NCBI GenBank assembly: GCA_964589375.1
Contig: CAZPSA010000006.1
Coordinates: 1-35,677, forward strand
Length of the DNA stretch: 35,677 bases
Direction: 5' to 3'
Source: an uncultured Clostridium sp.
GTDB lineage: Bacteria > Bacillota_I > Bacilli_A > RF39 > UBA660
Part shown: in pieces, positions 3,045-24,015 of the stretch
Layout: each line of letters begins with the position of its first letter
How positions within the stretch are numbered: position 1 is the stretch's first letter
Program-made: the position numbers and the translations under genes
The notes under the pieces: model-generated
Databases searched by the model: none
What the model was told of the DNA's origin: nothing
The model's input: the letters and a program-made list of their open reading frames with translations, nothing else

Positions 3045-3652
3045 TCTTTTATCATTTTCCTTTCAATAATTTTATTAATAACTTGTAATACAATAAAACC
3101 TAATATAAATCCACCAACTATATCTGATGCATAATGAACTCCTAAATATATTCTACTTATTCCAATTGATAATATAACAAATGAAAGTAACATCATAATT
3201 AGTAATTTAATATTTTTATTCATTTCACTATTCTTTATTAAATAAATTATTCCTCCATAAAAGCATATACTTCCCATTGCATGACCTGAAGGAAAACTAA
3301 ATCCAGTTTCTTCGATTAATCTTAATATTAAAGGTCGATTTCTTTGAATAATGTTTTTGACAATTAAATTAATTAAAGTTGATACAATCGTAAGTAATAT
3401 GATATATAATCCTCTTTTTTCTTGCCAAATTAAAGGAATAAGAAATAATAAGCAAAATATAATAATAGTTAAAGGATTAGCAAGTACTGTTATCATTTTC
3501 ATAATACTTGTTAAAGTACTACTTTTAAAACTAATAATAAAATTATATATTGTATTATCAAACCAACTAATATTATTAGTAATAATTAGAAATGTCCATA
3601 TAATAAATAAAACTATTAATAAAATGATTTTTATGTCTAAATTCTTCTTCAT
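3041..3652 (-). CDS. PAP2-family phosphatase, BcrC-like candidate undecaprenyl-pyrophosphate phosphatase
   Basis: All three PAP2 motifs are present: K..RNRP, PSGHAMGS and SRIYLGVHYASD. Multi-pass membrane protein whose start overlaps the SDR gene stop (ATGA). Confidence 0.8.
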   Translation of the reverse strand: MKKNLDIKIILLIVLFIIWTFLIITNNISWFDNTIYNFIISFKSSTLTSIMKMITVLANPLTIIIFCLLFLIPLIWQEKRGLYIILLTIVSTLINLIVKNIIQRNRPLILRLIEETGFSFPSGHAMGSICFYGGIIYLIKNSEMNKNIKLLIMMLLSFVILSIGISRIYLGVHYASDIVGGFILGFIVLQVINKIIERKMIKE

Positions 3653-19979: not shown

Positions 19980-20055
19980 GTCAAGTTAATTTTCTATATC
20001 AAAAATGTCTACGATATTAACCAAATAAAAACTTGAACGATTGTCCAAGTTAATT
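19980..20055. repeat. intergenic palindromic repeat copy, includes the likely thyX terminator
   Basis: GTCAAGTTAATTTT then 7 nt then AAAAATGTCTACGATATTAACC. Minus-sense hairpin CTTGGACaatcGTTCAAG followed by TTTTTATTT just after the stop of 20063..21265. Confidence 0.4.
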
Positions 20056-20062
20056 ATTATTA

Positions 20063-21265
20063 TTAGATTTTTCTAACTAATTGTATTCCTTCTGAAAAAT
20101 TACAGCATGAAGAACACTTAAAGTCTGGGAAAGTACATCTAGCTCCATTAGTTCGTTTCTTTATATCTCCTGCTAAAGGACTACCTGAATTTTCTAAAGC
20201 TTCCTTATATTTTAATAAAGTTTCTCTAGTTTGTTGGACTATTTCTAATTGAGCAGCCGTACAAAGTCTTTCCTTACATTTTAAAATGAAATCATCATAT
20301 TTACCAGATTCACAAATTCTGATAAACTCACCTTGAGGATTTACATCTTTAACTACTCTCATATCCTTTAACCATTCATCAACTAACATTTCATCATCAG
20401 CAATTATTGGTGGAACATAATATTCTTTTTCATCTAACATTTCCATTTGATAATCAAGAGTTCTATGACGCAGAGCATGGGCAAGTTGAGCAAAAGAACC
20501 CTTATAAGTTGTAATATAAACCTTACCAAAATAATCATCAGTTTCATCTAAATTGTGACCAAATAATGATAAATGGCGACATTTTTCATTTTGCATTAGC
20601 CTTTTCTCTAAGACATTTACTTCATCTAAAGCAGTTAATAACTCTTGCATAGCTTGAGCTAATTTTCTTTCAAAAGGAATATCATTATTAGCGTTCTTAA
20701 TAAACTCTTGTAACCATGACGCTATATAGTTAATTTGTCTTAAAGATGTAGAATAAATCATCTGTGTTGGCATAAATACAGTAACTAAATATCTTGCATT
20801 TTCTTGAGCTAATTTTTGAATCTTAGCATCATTATAAAAATCACCATATTTTTCTTTGATTTTTAATTTAAAAATATCAATCCACTTATTATAAAGGGTT
20901 TCTTCTGCCTCAGTTATAATTGAACCTTCTTGTCTAATAACTGGAGTATAACGAGCAGATTTTTCACTAGTAGTATATTGATGTTCATTATTAATTACCA
21001 TTGCTAAAATTTTAGGTATATTTTGGAGATTAAAATTAATCGTAATATGATCATACACACTATGATGACCATTATTTAATGTCATATTAACTCTACGCAT
21101 TGTTTTTTCTTCTGGCTCTTGTTCTAAATGGGAAAATCCTTCTTTATCATAACAAATACCAGCAATTTTTCCAGATAATTTTATTGCTTCTTCTTTATCA
21201 AAAGTACCATCTGGTTTTAAATACTTGTTTGGTAAAATACTTACCTTAATCTTTGTTTGTTCCAT
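20063..21265 (-). CDS. ThyX-fold (FAD-dependent thymidylate synthase-like) protein, divergent and unusually long
   Basis: The N-terminal 110 aa align in pattern with T. maritima ThyX (AGICYD / NGHHSVYDH / SARY against ARVSFD / HGHETPFEH / SGRY). The RHR of the ThyX motif is NEH here. There is a 150-aa C-terminal extension ending in CTFPDFKCSSCCNF. Confidence 0.5.
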   Translation of the reverse strand: MEQTKIKVSILPNKYLKPDGTFDKEEAIKLSGKIAGICYDKEGFSHLEQEPEEKTMRRVNMTLNNGHHSVYDHITINFNLQNIPKILAMVINNEHQYTTSEKSARYTPVIRQEGSIITEAEETLYNKWIDIFKLKIKEKYGDFYNDAKIQKLAQENARYLVTVFMPTQMIYSTSLRQINYIASWLQEFIKNANNDIPFERKLAQAMQELLTALDEVNVLEKRLMQNEKCRHLSLFGHNLDETDDYFGKVYITTYKGSFAQLAHALRHRTLDYQMEMLDEKEYYVPPIIADDEMLVDEWLKDMRVVKDVNPQGEFIRICESGKYDDFILKCKERLCTAAQLEIVQQTRETLLKYKEALENSGSPLAGDIKKRTNGARCTFPDFKCSSCCNFSEGIQLVRKI

Positions 21266-21383
21266 AAATCCTCCTTAGTTTTTTACAAATTAATTATATC
21301 ATATAGCAAATTAACCCTGCAACTAAACTAAATGAATTAAATAAAGCTTAATTAAGGAAAAAATATGATCTTTTTGACCATAT

Positions 21384-22546
21384 TTATTTAACTATTACTC
21401 TAATTATATTTTTCTTACCTTTATGTAAAACAAAATCATTTGGGCATTCATAGTTTGGATCAAGTATTTTATCTTGATTAACCATAATTCCCCCTTGAAT
21501 AACTAGTCTTCTAGCTTCACTTTTAGATGGTGCTAATTTACTTTCAACTAAGATATTTAAGATATTATTATCGCTTACAGTAACTTTTGGCATTTCATCA
21601 GTTACTTCACCATTAAATATTTTTTCACTAATCTCCTTAGCTTTTTTAGCTTCATCTACCCCATGTAAATCTTTTACTACTTCATAAGCAAGAGTTTTTT
21701 GGGCTAATCTATTTTCCGGATTATTTTCAACTTCTAAAGCTAGATTTTCAATTTCTTCTTTAGATAAGAAAGTAAATACCTTTAAATATTCAACAACTTT
21801 AGAATCATCAGAATTAAGTAGGTATTGATATATTTTATATGGAGATGTTTTCTCTTTATCTAGCCATAAAGCATTACCTTCACTTTTACCAAACTTTTTT
21901 CCTGTCGCGTCTAAAATAAGTGGCATGGTAAAGCCATAAGCTTCTTTACCTTCTATTTTTCTAATAAGCTCAATACCAGTTGTAATATTTCCCCATTGAT
22001 CTGAACCTGCTGCTTGTAAAACACAGTTTTTATTATTAAATAGATGTAAGAAATCAAATCCTTGTAAAAGAGTATATGAAAATTCAGCATAAGTAATACC
22101 AGTTTCTAAACGTCTTTGAATTATATCTTTTCCTAGCATATAATTAACATTAATATATTTACCTATATCTCTTAAAAAATCTAGAAATGTTATATCCTTA
22201 GTTCAATCATAATTATTAACTATTTCAGCTTTTCCTTCTAAAAGAATGGTTATTTGTTTCTTTAAACCTTCAATGTTTTTTAATACTGTTTCCTTGGATA
22301 TTATTTCTCTTTCGGCTGTTGGTCTTGGATCGCCAATTAGTCCAGTTGCTTCGCCAACCAATATTATAGGGTTATGACCATGTCTAGCTAATCTTTTAGC
22401 AGTTACAAATGAGGCATAATGACCTATATGTAAACTATCCGCGGTTGGATCTGTTCCTAAGTAAAAAGTTATAGTTTTTCTTCTAATTCTGGTGAGCTAA
22501 TGTCTTTAACTACACCTCTCCATTTTAGTTCTTCAAAAAATGTCAT
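21384..22546 (-). pseudogene. tyrS: tyrosyl-tRNA synthetase gene (tyrS) disrupted by a -1 frameshift and an in-frame TGA
   Basis: ATG at 22546 gives MTFFEELKWRGVVKDISSPELEEKL then a stop. A -1 shift in an A5 run (about 22447-22455) restores ITFYLGTDPTADSLHIGHY (HIGH motif). A TGA at 22203-22205 sits exactly at the conserved Trp of NNYDW. The track ORF 21384..22139 carries KFGKS (the KMSKS motif) and a C-terminal S4 domain. Confidence 0.6.
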
Positions 22547-22547
22547 G

Positions 22548-23030
22548 TTAATCCTCCTTATTTGTTGAACCGATACCACCAGCTCTAACATTTGTTATTT
22601 CTTCTTCATCATCTACAGTTAAATATTTCATAAAGACAGCTTGAGCAATTCGATCAAAAGCTTTTACTTCAATATCTTTATCACCATGATTAATTATTTT
22701 AACTTTAAAGTGTCCTTCATTATCTGGATTATTATAAAAATCACTATCTATAACTCCCACACTATTAGCTAAAGTTGCACAATATTTATAACCAAATGAG
22801 CTTCTAGTATAAAGGTATAATACCTCATCATCATTCATACATACTTTTAATCCAGTTGCAAAAACTTTAGCTTCTTTTGGTTTTATTACTTCATCTTTTA
22901 AAGCACAAATATCATAACCAGCAGAATGTTTAGTGCTTCTTTTTGGTAAAGTATATTTTTCATATAATTCTTTATCCTCGGAAATATCTTTTTTAAATTG
23001 TTCAAAACTAATTTTTTCAAATTTTCGCAT
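22548..23030 (-). CDS. dut: dUTP diphosphatase (dUTPase)
   Basis: Motifs AGYDI, RSS, GVIDSDF and RAGGIGSTNK. 160 aa. Its stop lies 2 nt from the tyrS start. Confidence 0.75.
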   Translation of the reverse strand: MRKFEKISFEQFKKDISEDKELYEKYTLPKRSTKHSAGYDICALKDEVIKPKEAKVFATGLKVCMNDDEVLYLYTRSSFGYKYCATLANSVGVIDSDFYNNPDNEGHFKVKIINHGDKDIEVKAFDRIAQAVFMKYLTVDDEEEITNVRAGGIGSTNKED

Positions 23031-23039
23031 TTTTCTTCA

Positions 23040-23310
23040 CTCCATTCCATTAAAAAAAATCATTAATTTAAGGACGACTATATGCCGCGGTACCACCTTA
23101 TTTCATGATTTTCATGCTCTCATCATCTTAACGCGATAAACGATTTAACTCCAGAGGTTGTAAGGCTCTATCTTTGCTAACAAAGTAAGTATAGCAAACT
23201 TAAAATTGTTAGTCAATTAGAGAATTACAACGAACTCTATAAACTATGATTAATTTGTGATAAGATTAATTATTTTTATTATATTCCTTACATTTTTCTT
23301 CTAACAATAT
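23040..23310 (-). promoter_or_regulatory. T-box riboswitch-like leader with a sigma-A-like promoter upstream of dut-tyrS
   Basis: Minus-sense AAATAAGGTGGTACCGCGG (forward 23084-23098) matches the T-box consensus AATTAGGGTGGTACCGCGG. An F-box-like CGTTA is present. A 7-bp-stem stem-loop holds UAC (Tyr) in its loop. TTGTTA (23306-23301) then 18 nt then TATAAT (23282-23277). The A/T run ends at the dut RBS. Confidence 0.45.
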
Positions 23311-23454
23311 AAAATTACAGCATCTTTTTTTATTCTTTCATCTAATTTATTATTTTTATATTTATCATACAAATTAGATGCTTTTCCTTTTCCTTTTTTA
23401 ATATTTTTGTTTAACTACAATAATTGTGTTTTTAATAGATTTTGCCATTTAAGT

Positions 23455-23655
23455 TCATTGGTATCTTTTTGGCACCGCATTTAAATCAAATAATTCATAA
23501 TTATTTTGAGTAACTGGTATCATATTATTGAAGTTAACAATCCCTAAATTTTCTTTAGCAATTTTAACCGTATCCAAGTTATTTTTCATATGTACATGCT
23601 TAACTTTAGGACTTGATAATGGGGCAAAGTATTCACAGCTATCTATAGTAAACAA
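23455..23655 (-). CDS. small hypothetical ORF, possibly a remnant
   Basis: 66 aa, no motif, and it lies in a region showing other signs of decay. Confidence 0.2.
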   Translation of the reverse strand: MFTIDSCEYFAPLSSPKVKHVHMKNNLDTVKIAKENLGIVNFNNMIPVTQNNYELFDLNAVPKRYQ

Positions 23656-23782
23656 AATTCCTATAAATTATACTACTTTATTATCAAATTGTCTTAAATA
23701 ATCATAAACTTTTACTATTTTAAAATTTCTAATCAAGATATATCACTTAAAATAATTATATCCTATTTTTATTCCAAATAAA

Positions 23783-23824
23783 AGATTAGAGTAAGCTCTC
23801 TAATCTAGTAAGCTCTCTAATCTA
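23783..23824. repeat. tandem 17-nt duplication with an embedded inverted repeat
   Basis: AGATTAGAG-TAAGCTCTCTAATCT-AGTAAGCTCTCTAATCT. AGATTAGAG/CTCTAATCT form a 9-bp inverted repeat. CCGCTTTTTTT follows. Confidence 0.5.
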
Positions 23825-24015
23825 TCACCGCTTTTTTTAATTACCATTTTCGGCTGGTTTCACTCGCTTTTTATTGCTATTAAATAGCATTATTATTATA
23901 TACAAAATTGCATAGCATAATCACTCATGCGTTTGTAATATACCATAAATATAGAAATGTCTAGTATTACACGAATAATTTTTAAAAATTAAAAAGATGA
24001 TATTTAATCATCAAT

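What the first reader, a model, noticed from the sequence alone, without database searches (positions are those of the whole stretch)
21384..23310. T-box-like leader placed before dut rather than directly before tyrS, and tyrS itself carries two lesions
A near-consensus T-box sequence (AAGGTGGTACCGCGG) with a plausible promoter sits upstream of dut. The dut stop is 2 nt from the tyrS start, so the unit looks like T-box-dut-tyrS, which is an unusual arrangement. tyrS has a -1 frameshift in an A5 run (about 22447-22455) and a TGG-to-TGA change at the conserved Trp of NNYDW (22203-22205). Either tyrS is a decaying pseudogene, in which case a second tyrS/tyrZ must exist elsewhere, or these are sequence errors. 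Other Trp codons in the same gene are TGG, so TGA=Trp recoding is not the explanation.
Basis: seen in the sequence. Interest (0 to 1): 0.65.

Follow-up and report, generated by a model that had tools for sequence, protein, structure and literature searches.

The report
Minimal tyrosine T-box, dut, broken tyrS
A real but unusually stripped-down tRNA-sensing RNA switch (a T-box) controls a two-gene operon, dUTPase then tyrosyl-tRNA synthetase. In this strain the synthetase gene is truly broken, and the switch belongs to a widespread gut-bacterial T-box design that fits none of the four described classes.

Summary
A Tyr-specific T-box leader (window 23183..23052, minus strand) with its own promoter precedes dut, and dut ends 1 nt before the tyrS start codon. 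tyrS is disrupted.

Three corrections apply:
- The frameshift is a 13-nt deletion at 22472|22471, not a 1-nt loss in the A5 run.
- There is a third lesion, G70E in the conserved GGATG motif.
- Rfam scores the leader at 56.7 bits, below its gathering cut-off of 93.

The lesions are not assembly noise. Two independent public assemblies carry the identical sequence, and a 99.1%-identical strain has an intact 391-aa tyrS. TGA=Trp is excluded: 37 ORFs contain no in-frame TGA.

T-box-dut-tyrS is conserved in 10 related species-level genomes besides this species. Other relatives carry deoC, a HAD hydrolase or a non-homologous dUTPase in the same slot.

The unexpected part is the leader itself. It has a K-turn, a 3-4 bp helix, a 9-nt apical loop carrying UAC, a IIA/B pseudoknot, Stem III and an antiterminator. 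It has no elbow-binding platform and no Stem II, yet it has a transcription terminator. Seventy sequences show strong covariation for every helix.

Whether a second tyrS exists could not be tested.

The parts
23188..23216 (-). Sigma-70-type promoter: TTGACT (23216-23211), 17-nt spacer, TG-extended TATACT (23193-23188). The inferred transcription start is about 23181-23183, at the foot of Stem I.
   Evidence: 10 of 12 consensus matches, TG present. In 68 of 70 related leaders a -10-like box ends 2-9 nt upstream of the first helix.
23052..23183 (-). Tyr T-box leader RNA of the minimal architecture, 132 nt.
   Evidence: Rfam RF00230 gives 56.7 bits, E = 9e-12. The class-specific model R1 gives 118 bits, but the window is in R1's seed alignment. 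Covariation was measured on 70 sequences.
23145..23180 (-). Ultrashort Stem I. Basal helix UUAGC/GUUAA (23180-23176 with 23149-23145). K-turn: bulge AAA, then tandem GA/GA at 23172-23171 and 23151-23150. Helix AGAG/CUCU (23169-23166 with 23156-23153). Nine-nt apical loop CCUUACAAC (23165-23157).
   Evidence: Helices 1 and 2 are 100% and 98% paired, with 2 of 5 and 4 of 4 pairs changed on both sides. The parse of 84 unique sequences is.
23160..23162 (-). Specifier codon UAC (Tyr), followed by the usual purine (A23159).
   Evidence: Read from the sequence. Every leader of this type lies upstream of tyrS or of X-tyrS.
23123..23142 (-). Stem IIA/B pseudoknot with F-box. IIA is CGU/GCG (23142-23140 with 23134-23132). 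The F-box CGUUA is at 23133-23129. The IIA loop UUAUC (23139-23135) pairs with GAUGA (23127-23123). There is no Stem II hairpin: only 2 nt separate Stem I from IIA.
   Evidence: In the Rfam alignment the Stem II positions are deleted while IIA and CGUUA are aligned. The three inner IIB pairs show 23-41 compensatory cells each; the outer pair shows 9.
23104..23121 (-). The purine motif GAGAG (RRRNG) followed by Stem III, CAUGA-AAA-UCAUG.
   Evidence: Stem III is 89.6% paired and 4 of 4 pairs change on both sides. The RRRNG-Stem III-AA motif is described in PMC7778990.
23070..23099 (-). Antiterminator. Helix A1 is AAGG/CCUU. The 7-nt T-box bulge UGGUACC lies at 23095-23089; its UGGU would pair with the tRNA 3' ACCA. 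Helix A2 is GCGGC/GUCGU.
   Evidence: helices 6 and 7 are 98-99% paired.
23052..23069 (-). The terminator 3' arm AAAUUAAUGA followed by U8. The arm pairs with the 3' strand of Stem III plus the linker (23111-23100). The terminator and Stem III are therefore mutually exclusive, and the antiterminator hairpin sits at the apex of the terminator.
   Evidence: Minimum-free-energy folds of the window and five relatives. The basal helix is 83.9% paired and 6 of 7 pairs change on both sides.
22548..23030 (-). dut, a trimeric-type dUTPase of 160 aa. It is intact and has GGAG 9 nt upstream of the ATG.
   Evidence: PF00692, E = 1e-21. There are 2 synonymous and 0 non-synonymous differences from strain L001.
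21384..22546 (-). tyrS pseudogene, split into ORFs of 25, 52 and 251 codons. Lesions: a 13-nt deletion at 22472|22471 giving TAA at 22471-22469; G70E at 22351; TGG to TGA at 22205-22203; V123I at 22193.
   Evidence: The repaired translation matches PF00579, PF22421 and S4.
21356..21383 (-). Hairpin AUAUGGUC-AAAAA-GAUCAUAU followed by a U-run, directly after the tyrS stop codon. It is probably the terminator of the operon. thyX (20063-21265) follows with its own TTGCAG-18-TATAAT.
   Evidence: Read from the sequence. It was not listed by the scan because it has fewer than 3 G-C pairs. This is an inference.

Best explanation
The region is one transcription unit: promoter, Tyr-specific T-box leader, dut, tyrS, terminator.

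Mechanism of the leader (inferred). Uncharged tRNA-Tyr pairs its GUA anticodon with UAC in the 9-nt apical loop of a very short Stem I. Its free ACCA end pairs with UGGU in the T-box bulge. This holds Stem III and the antiterminator together, so RNA polymerase reads through the U8 tract into dut-tyrS. Without uncharged tRNA, the arm AAAUUAAUGA displaces the 5' strand of Stem III. The antiterminator hairpin is thereby extended into a long terminator hairpin that ends at the U8 tract.

Architecture (shown). The leader belongs to a widespread design in uncultured low-GC gut Bacilli. It has no elbow-binding distal platform and no Stem II. It keeps the K-turn, the IIA/B pseudoknot, Stem III and the antiterminator.

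dut (shown). dut is a conserved passenger gene in the slot between the leader and tyrS.

tyrS (shown). In this strain tyrS has been inactivated recently by a 13-nt deletion, G70E and W119stop. The leader and dut remain intact. The riboswitch therefore now effectively controls only dut.

Second synthetase (inferred). The strain must obtain TyrRS activity from another gene that was not seen here.
For: T-box identity:
- RF00230 matches at E = 9e-12, with the K-turn, IIA/F-box, Stem III and antiterminator aligned and the distal Stem I and Stem II deleted.

Architecture:
- Thirteen species-level genome loci were found through TyrS homology only, so they were not selected on leader sequence. They share the short Stem I with the (C/A)(C/U)UUAC(A/G)NC loop.
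- A metagenome pattern scan added 96 further matches that also have a T-box core downstream.
- On a sequence-only MAFFT alignment of 70 distinct leaders, 95.8% of cells are paired, against 78.9% after shuffling and 32-46% when partners are slid. Twenty-one of 29 pairs change on both sides, including the pseudoknot.
- The terminator basal helix is 83.9% paired and 6 of 7 pairs change on both sides.
- A -10 box ends 2-9 nt upstream of Stem I in 68 of 70 leaders, which leaves no room for a long Stem I.

Operon:
- dut-tyrS with an upstream T-box occurs in L004, L005, L010, L013, L015, L016, L017, L019, L023 and L028.

Pseudogene:
- L002 and L003 are 100% identical to the window. L001 is 99.08% identical and intact.
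- The lesions are derived on the window lineage and hit residues that are invariant or nearly so among homologues.
- dut shows only synonymous differences.

Genetic code:
- The standard code is in use.
Against: - No experiment supports tRNA binding or antitermination.
- Published work holds that truncated Stem I domains barely bind tRNA without Stem II (PMC7583486). How this leader achieves affinity is therefore unexplained.
- The thermodynamic fold of the window leader is no better than shuffled sequence (z = -0.12), and its terminator basal helix is only about 4 A-U-rich pairs plus A:U-run pairs.
- The metagenome sequences were chosen with a pattern that fixes TTAC, GAG, AAA, CG and CGTTA. 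They were then filtered for Stem I pairing (71 of 84 kept). Conservation of those letters, and part of the pairing in helices 1 and 2, is therefore circular.
- The NCBI contig and the two Logan assemblies may come from one study or host. They show that the lesions are reproducible, but not that they arose in independent lineages.
- A reduced genome with a dead tyrS and no second copy would not be viable, and no second copy has been shown.
Confidence: 0.72

Rival explanations
1. The tyrS lesions are sequencing or assembly errors, and the gene is intact in the organism.
For: The organism appears to have a small genome, so a second TyrRS is not expected a priori. The contig comes from a metagenome bin. 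All three point changes are G to A on the coding strand.
Against: The sequence, lesions included, is identical in Logan assemblies of two other runs. A 13-nt deletion flanked by the near-repeat GAAAAAcTA / GAAAAAtTA is a replication-slippage type of event, not a homopolymer miscall. Three damaging changes fall in one gene, while the adjacent dut has only 2 synonymous differences.
Confidence: 0.07
2. tyrS is still expressed through recoding, by TGA read as Trp and/or a programmed frameshift.
For: The TGA sits exactly at a conserved Trp codon.
Against: Thirty-seven ORFs contain no in-frame TGA, 3 ORFs end in TGA, and only tRNA-Trp(CCA) is seen. The deletion removes 13 nt and five conserved codons, so no single shift can restore the protein. 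The first in-frame start after it (TTG, 22361) lies beyond the HIGH motif. The nearly identical strain encodes TGG.
Confidence: 0.02
3. The leader is a decayed T-box relic that no longer regulates anything. dut-tyrS is expressed constitutively from the promoter.
For: The Rfam score is below the gathering cut-off. Both known affinity elements, the distal platform and Stem II, are missing. The terminator stem in the window is weak.
Against: The same reduced design is kept in 13 species-level genomes and 70 or more distinct sequences, with compensatory changes in every helix, including the pseudoknot and the terminator arm. The specifier is always UAC upstream of tyrS. Relics do not show covariation.
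Confidence: 0.1
4. The switch acts on translation by sequestering the ribosome-binding site, like the short-Stem-I actinobacterial ileS T-boxes, and not on transcription.
For: All short-Stem-I T-boxes described so far are translational (PMC7583486, PMC10482949).
Against: The alternative hairpin ends directly at a run of 4-8 U in all 70 aligned leaders. The GGAG of dut (23043-23040) lies about 9 nt beyond the U-run and is unpaired in the fold. The host is a low-GC Firmicute, where transcriptional control is the rule.
Confidence: 0.08
5. dut sits behind the T-box by accident of gene order and has no functional tie to tyrS.
For: The slot also holds unrelated genes in other species, including an M29 peptidase, CYTH and DUF3800. 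Reduced genomes often fuse operons.
Against: dut-tyrS linkage persists across genomes whose TyrS is only 69-88% identical and across both leader types. A non-homologous dimeric dUTPase (PF08761) occupies the same slot in L044. DeoC, HAD and HD hydrolases, which are plausibly deoxynucleotide enzymes, recur there.
Confidence: 0.4

Closest known systems
Class I T-box (Bacillus subtilis tyrS leader; Rfam RF00230)
   Same: Tyr specifier UAC followed by a purine. K-turn at the base of Stem I. IIA/B pseudoknot with F-box CGUUA. RRRNG-Stem III-AA motif. Antiterminator with a UGGUACC bulge. Intrinsic terminator. Located upstream of tyrS in a Firmicute.
   Different: No distal interdigitated T-loop platform (AG bay and distal loop). 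The specifier sits in a 9-nt apical loop rather than an internal loop. There is no Stem II or S-turn. The terminator is built by extending the antiterminator hairpin with the 3' strand of Stem III, rather than by re-pairing the 3' half of the antiterminator. The Rfam score is 56.7 bits against a cut-off of 93.
Class III 'ultrashort Stem I' T-box (Nocardia farcinica / Mycobacterium ileS; PMC10482949, PMC7583486)
   Same: Short Stem I without an elbow-binding platform. Specifier in an apical loop. K-turn and IIA/B pseudoknot present.
   Different: Class III leaders need Stem II, have a 5-6 nt loop, are Ile-specific and actinobacterial, and sequester the ribosome-binding site. This leader has no Stem II, has a 9-nt loop, is Tyr-specific and Firmicute, and ends in a U-tract terminator.
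Class II T-box (B. subtilis glyQS)
   Same: No Stem II hairpin. Transcriptional control. Small overall size.
   Different: glyQS leaders keep the long Stem I with the tRNA-elbow platform, lack the IIA/B pseudoknot and are glycine-specific.
Redundant tyrS/tyrZ pairs in Firmicutes, of which only one copy is T-box regulated (PMC2494555 reports this for 58% of duplicated ligase genes)
   Same: This would explain how a T-box-regulated tyrS can be lost.
   Different: No second copy has been seen for this organism. Relatives appear to have small genomes.

Membership tests
T-box leader (RF00230) | Score at or above Rfam's gathering threshold | tested here: not met
   56.7 bits against 93. Nothing is reported at the gathering threshold. 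The E-value of 9e-12 is nevertheless highly significant.
T-box leader (RF00230) | T-box sequence forming an antiterminator with a 7-nt bulge that carries UGGN | tested here: met
   AAGG-UGGUACC-GCGGC...GUCGU-CCUU at 23099-23070. Helices A1 and A2 are 98-99% paired with compensatory changes.
T-box leader (RF00230) | Specifier codon matching the regulated gene, followed by a purine | tested here: met
   UAC-A at 23162-23159. All 13 minimal-type leaders in genomes, and 52 of the 54 metagenome leaders with enough downstream sequence to test, precede tyrS or X-tyrS, or the passenger gene at a contig end.
T-box leader (RF00230) | K-turn (GA motif) at the base of Stem I | tested here: met
   A 3-nt bulge plus tandem GA/GA at the expected register in 71 of 84 parsed leaders. 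The flanking helix is 100% paired.
T-box leader (RF00230) | Stem I distal platform (AG bay plus distal loop) that stacks on the tRNA elbow | tested here: not met
   Seventy-six model positions are replaced by 9 nt. The promoter -10 box ends about 7 nt before Stem I. Relatives with a long Stem I do have AGAGA...GGUUGGUG.
T-box leader (RF00230) | Stem II with S-turn | tested here: not met
   The Stem II model positions are deleted. Only 2 nt lie between Stem I and IIA in all 70 leaders.
T-box leader (RF00230) | Stem IIA/B pseudoknot with F-box | tested here: met
   CGU/GCG plus CGUUA. Loop-to-downstream pairing is 86% paired, with 23-41 compensatory cells in each of the three inner pairs.
T-box leader (RF00230) | tRNA-dependent antitermination | not testable with these tools
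   This needs in vitro transcription or reporter assays.
Class III (ultrashort, translational) T-box | Stem II required; ribosome-binding site sequestered; 5-6 nt specifier loop | tested here: not met
   No Stem II. A U8 terminator, with the GGAG outside the switch. The loop is 9 nt.
Class II (glyQS) T-box | Long Stem I with platform; single-stranded linker in place of the Stem II domain; Gly specifier | tested here: not met
   Short Stem I, pseudoknot retained, UAC specifier.
Bacterial tyrosyl-tRNA synthetase gene | Uninterrupted ORF with the class I catalytic domain (HIGH, KFGKS) and the S4-like C-terminal domain | tested here: not met
   The domains are recognisable only after repair. As it stands the ORF is split at 22471 and 22205, and G70E is present. 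The feature is met in strain L001.
Trimeric dUTPase (PF00692) | HMM match above the cut-off, and the five dUTPase motifs | tested here: met
   77.4 bits against a cut-off of 22. AGYDI, TRSS, GVIDSDFY, RIAQ and RAGGIGST are visible in the translation. The motif assignment rests on my own knowledge.
Genetic code 4 (TGA = Trp) | In-frame TGA at Trp positions across genes; TGA not used as a stop | tested here: not met
   0 in-frame TGA and 52 TGG in 37 ORFs, 3 of which end in TGA. The tRNA-Trp gene has anticodon CCA.

The most novel reading that the evidence does not exclude
The leader represents a fifth architectural class of T-box riboswitch.
- It is a transcription-terminating switch of about 130 nt. 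It recognises tRNA-Tyr with neither the elbow-binding platform nor the Stem II S-turn.
- A IIA/B pseudoknot abuts the K-turn directly. It may stand in for Stem II beside the codon-anticodon helix.
- The terminator forms by strand exchange with Stem III rather than by dismantling the antiterminator.
- The class is common in uncultured gut Bacilli and is missed by Rfam's gathering threshold.
- It repeatedly places deoxynucleotide-housekeeping genes under tRNA-Tyr charging control. These genes are two unrelated dUTPases and DeoC, with HAD and HD hydrolases as possible further examples.
Probability: 0.45. Interest if true: 0.75.

Novelty: new variant of a known kind. Interest (0 to 1): 0.6.

Why it matters
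Current structural work states that T-boxes gain tRNA affinity from the Stem I distal platform, from the Stem II S-turn, or from both. It also states that short Stem I domains bind tRNA poorly without Stem II and occur in translational switches (PMC10482949, PMC7583486). A conserved, covarying, terminator-bearing Tyr T-box that lacks both elements contradicts that generalisation. It offers the smallest natural T-box scaffold so far for structural and engineering work.

There is a practical consequence. Such leaders score 52-59 bits with RF00230 and go unannotated, so T-box regulons of many gut Bacilli are under-called.

The strain-level loss of the regulated tyrS, with the leader and dut kept, is a natural experiment. 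It shows the switch being retained for a non-amino-acid gene, and it predicts a second TyrRS in a small genome.

Tried and rejected
- Default Rfam scan of the window: it found only tRNA-Trp and no T-box. An E-value scan was needed.
- A long Stem I built from the upstream 7-nt complement GUUGUAA (23231-23225) and UUACAAC (23163-23157): rejected. The promoter lies between the two, the pairing would bury the specifier, and relatives lack the upstream arm.
- Thermodynamic support: z-scores of single-sequence folds run from -0.1 to -2.0 and are not decisive. The argument rests on covariation instead.
- A canonical terminator, pairing the 3' half of the antiterminator with downstream sequence: no complement exists before the U-run.
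- TGA=Trp or code 4: rejected.
- A second tyrS: none lies in the 35.7-kb window.
- Other minimal T-boxes with non-Tyr specifiers: model R1 found none in 650 kb of tyrS-flanking DNA. That is a small and biased sample.
- Literature: searches for ultrashort or truncated Stem I, and for T-boxes in Mollicutes, found no description of this design. [quoted passage not shown] Sherwood et al. 2015 is not held.
Full report
WHAT THE WINDOW IS

The window has 26.4% G+C and is a chromosomal contig. It carries ftsA/ftsZ-like and spore-germination-like ORFs and one tRNA-Trp(CCA) gene. The closest TyrS relatives come from uncultured gut 'Bacilli', 'Tenericutes' UMGS bins, Clostridium sp. CAG:628 and CAG:524. 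The standard genetic code is in use. Thirty-seven ORFs contain 52 TGG and no in-frame TGA, and three of them end in TGA.

CHECKING THE OBSERVATION

On the minus strand the order of features is as follows:
- a TG-extended promoter, TTGACT-17-TATACT (23216..23188);
- a leader containing AAGGUGGUACCGCGG;
- a U8 tract (23059-23052);
- GGAG;
- dut (23030..22548, 160 aa, PF00692);
- one base further on, the tyrS ATG (22546);
- a hairpin with a U-run after the tyrS stop codon (21383-21356);
- thyX, with its own promoter.

At Rfam's gathering threshold no T-box is reported. With E-value reporting, RF00230 matches 23183..23067 at 56.7 bits and E = 9e-12. In that alignment the K-turn, the IIA hairpin with CGUUA, Stem III and the antiterminator are all aligned. 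Seventy-six model positions of distal Stem I are replaced by 9 nt, and Stem II is deleted.

THE tyrS LESIONS ARE REAL

Exact-protein look-ups found the same locus in Logan assemblies of three runs. L002 (SRR14160761) and L003 (SRR14160767) are 100% identical to the window over 4.1 kb and 3.0 kb. L001 (SRR14160746) is 99.08% identical and encodes an uninterrupted 391-aa TyrS.

Relative to L001, the window shows these changes:
- It lacks 13 nt (AATAATGAAAAAT) between two near-repeats, GAAAAAcTA and GAAAAAtTA. The junction is at 22472|22471, and a TAA stop follows immediately.
- It has A for G at 22351, giving G70E in VGGATGLIGDP.
- It has A for G at 22203, giving W119stop in NNYDW.
- It has A for G at 22193, giving V123I.

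The outgroups L004 and L005 carry the L001 state at all four positions (the deletion, G70E, W119stop and V123I), so the changes arose on the window lineage. Gly70 is found in 115 of 115 matched homologues, and Trp119 in 119 of 120. dut differs by two synonymous sites only. thyX differs by 5 synonymous and 5 non-synonymous sites.

The A5 run is at 22479-22475.

The remaining ORFs have 25, 52 and 251 codons. The first in-frame start after the deletion lies beyond the HIGH motif, so no active enzyme can be made. TyrRS is essential, so a second gene is inferred. I could not search for it.

One caveat applies. The NCBI contig and the Logan runs probably come from a single study. They demonstrate reproducibility, not independent origins.

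T-box-dut-tyrS IS A LINEAGE TRAIT

I fetched 80 loci through TyrS homology alone. Ten species-level genomes have T-box-dut-tyrS with the same spacing: L004, L005, L010, L013, L015, L016 (which is CAG:524), L017, L019, L023 and L028. Sister species have the T-box 57-78 nt upstream of tyrS.

In other genomes the slot between the leader and tyrS holds a variety of genes:
- DeoC aldolase (at least 8 genomes);
- a HAD hydrolase;
- an HD-domain protein;
- a CYTH protein;
- an M29 aminopeptidase;
- DUF3800;
- in L044, a dimeric dUTPase (PF08761) that is not homologous to the trimeric enzyme found here.

Two unrelated dUTPases in the same slot, together with DeoC and the HAD and HD hydrolases, hint at a selected coupling between deoxynucleotide housekeeping and the tyrS leader. 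This is only a hint.

THE LEADER'S ARCHITECTURE

The window species, L004-L008, L020, L027, L030, L034, L040, L042 and L073 share a 130-150 nt leader. These are the 13 species-level loci that score at least 100 bits with model R1. L024 and L025 show the same short Stem I with a different terminator and score lower. The leader is laid out as follows:
- a 5-bp basal helix;
- a K-turn (3-nt bulge, tandem GA/GA);
- a 3-4 bp helix;
- a 9-nt apical loop (C/A)(C/U)UUAC(A/G)NC;
- two nucleotides;
- a 3-bp IIA hairpin followed by CGUUA, with the hairpin loop pairing just downstream (IIB);
- RRRNG, Stem III, AA;
- the antiterminator with UGGUACC;
- a 3' arm and a U-run.

Ninety-six of these have a T-box core downstream. 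Of 84 unique parses, 71 fit the layout exactly. In 68 of 70 leaders a -10 box ends 2-9 nt upstream of the basal helix, so no long Stem I can lie upstream.

COVARIATION

I used a MAFFT alignment (A2; 70 distinct sequences, not fitted to any structure). On it the ON-state structure gives these figures:
- 95.8% of cells paired, against 78.9% after shuffling (0 of 500 shuffles reach the observed value) and 32-46% when partners are slid;
- 21 of 29 pairs changed on both sides;
- 341 compensatory cells, against 96 expected;
- in the pseudoknot, types such as AUC/GAU, CUC/GAG, GAA/UUC, AAG/CUU and CUA/UAG.

The OFF-state helix pairs the 3' strand of Stem III with the arm before the U-run. It is 83.9% paired, and 6 of 7 pairs change on both sides. 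It appears in the minimum-free-energy fold of the window and of five relatives.

Stem III and this helix share four columns, so the two are mutually exclusive. The antiterminator hairpin persists at the apex of the terminator. This differs from the textbook switch.

Caveats: the pattern fixed several 'invariant' letters, and my filter required Stem I pairing. The pseudoknot, Stem III, antiterminator and terminator were not filtered.

RELATIVES WITH A LONG STEM I

L009, L013, L016, L023 and others score 68-85 bits with RF00230. They keep the AG bay and distal loop but also lack Stem II. By my reading of their sequences, their terminators sequester GGUACC with a downstream GGUACC-like arm. Both leader types occur in front of dut-tyrS, so whole leaders have been exchanged during evolution.

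COMPARISON WITH WHAT IS KNOWN

Niu et al. 2023 (PMC10482949) define four classes:
- Class I: long Stem I with platform, plus Stem II.
- Class II: glyQS; long Stem I, a linker in place of the Stem II domain, Gly only.
- Class III: short Stem I, a 5-6 nt apical loop, Stem II required, mostly translational.
- Class IV: intermediate Stem I.

They state that binding is augmented by the platform, the Stem II S-turn, or both. The review PMC7583486 adds two points. Transcriptional T-boxes generally need the platform, and truncated Stem I domains barely bind tRNA without Stem II.

This leader has neither element, yet it carries a terminator. It therefore fits none of the four classes.

I found no description of this design in the searchable literature. 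TBDB notes only unnamed class I hits with a predicted truncated Stem I. Sherwood et al. 2015 could not be read. 'Undescribed' is therefore provisional.

MECHANISM: SHOWN AND INFERRED

Shown:
- the sequence elements;
- their covariation;
- the mutual exclusivity of Stem III and the terminator helix;
- the position of the promoter;
- the gene order;
- the allelic states of tyrS.

Inferred:
- tRNA-Tyr(GUA) pairs with UAC;
- its ACCA end pairs with UGGU (the U matching discriminator base A73);
- bound uncharged tRNA stabilises the Stem III-antiterminator stack against invasion by the 3' arm;
- otherwise transcription ends at the U8 tract.

How affinity is achieved is unknown. The pseudoknot packed against the K-turn, the long variable arm of tRNA-Tyr, or a K-turn-binding protein are candidates.

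VERDICT

The pseudogene reading is supported over the error reading. The arrangement is ordinary for this lineage.

The noteworthy result is a conserved minimal T-box architecture that standard annotation misses. A secondary result is a strain in which that switch now serves only dut.

Noticed in passing
window 23310-23700 (minus strand), with a repeat at 23790-23824: This looks like the remnant of a type III toxin-antitoxin system. A 66-aa ORF (23655..23455) matches ToxN_toxin PF13958 (E = 4e-17, profile positions 38-102). The rest of the gene continues in other frames with stops, for example ...CNFILLEEKCKEY near 23330. Upstream lie 2.1 copies of a 17-nt unit and a hairpin with a T-run (23806..23783), possibly a decayed ToxI-like antitoxin array. 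The roughly 950-bp insert is absent from the closest species, L004, where the YtxH-like gene abuts the T-box promoter.
   Followed up: partly
window 23225-23231 versus 23157-23163: A perfect 7-nt complement (GUUGUAA / UUACAAC) links sequence upstream of the promoter to the specifier loop. If read-through transcripts from upstream exist, this pairing would mask the specifier. Relatives lack it, so it is probably chance.
   Followed up: partly
L044:245-724, compared with window 22548-23030: A dimeric all-alpha dUTPase (PF08761) lies between a Tyr T-box and tyrS in L044. This is the same slot that holds the unrelated trimeric dUTPase here. It is an apparent non-orthologous replacement that keeps the coupling to the leader.
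   Followed up: partly
L053, L057, L063, L068, L072, L074, L082, L083, L088, L104 and others: DeoC-family aldolase, HAD hydrolase, HD-domain, CYTH and M29 aminopeptidase genes recur between the Tyr T-box and tyrS. About 40% of the minimal leaders have such a passenger gene.
   Followed up: partly
L009, L013, L016, L023 (leaders about 3300-3500 in each locus): These are Tyr-specific T-boxes with a full Stem I platform but no Stem II. That layout is described in the literature as glycine-specific (class II). Their terminators appear to sequester the GGUACC bulge with a downstream GGUACC-like arm.
   Followed up: partly
window 20063-21265: The ThyX-like protein has 400 aa, but the Thy1 domain (PF02511) covers only residues 27-178. 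The C-terminal half is Cys-rich (...CTFPDFKCSSCCNF...) and has no Pfam match. It also carries 5 non-synonymous differences between two strains that are 99% identical.
   Followed up: no
L041, L045-L048, L050, L051, L056, L060, L062, L065, L067, L069, L071, L076: Bins labelled Treponema or Spirochaetia encode TyrS 59-65% identical to this Bacilli enzyme, and they have no upstream T-box. This could reflect horizontal transfer of tyrS or mis-binning.
   Followed up: no
P0001 (602 aa): The best-scoring database TyrS has an internal duplication of about 210 residues (NYDWMKNYTF...AEAD occurs twice). It is probably an assembly artefact.
   Followed up: no
window 20005-23878 compared with L001: The strain differences are directionally patterned. 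Upstream of about 21350, all 13 substitutions have A or C in the window where L001 has G or T. Downstream of that point, 11 of the 12 substitutions run the opposite way (G or T in the window where L001 has A or C). This may mark a recombination boundary near the tyrS/thyX junction.
   Followed up: no
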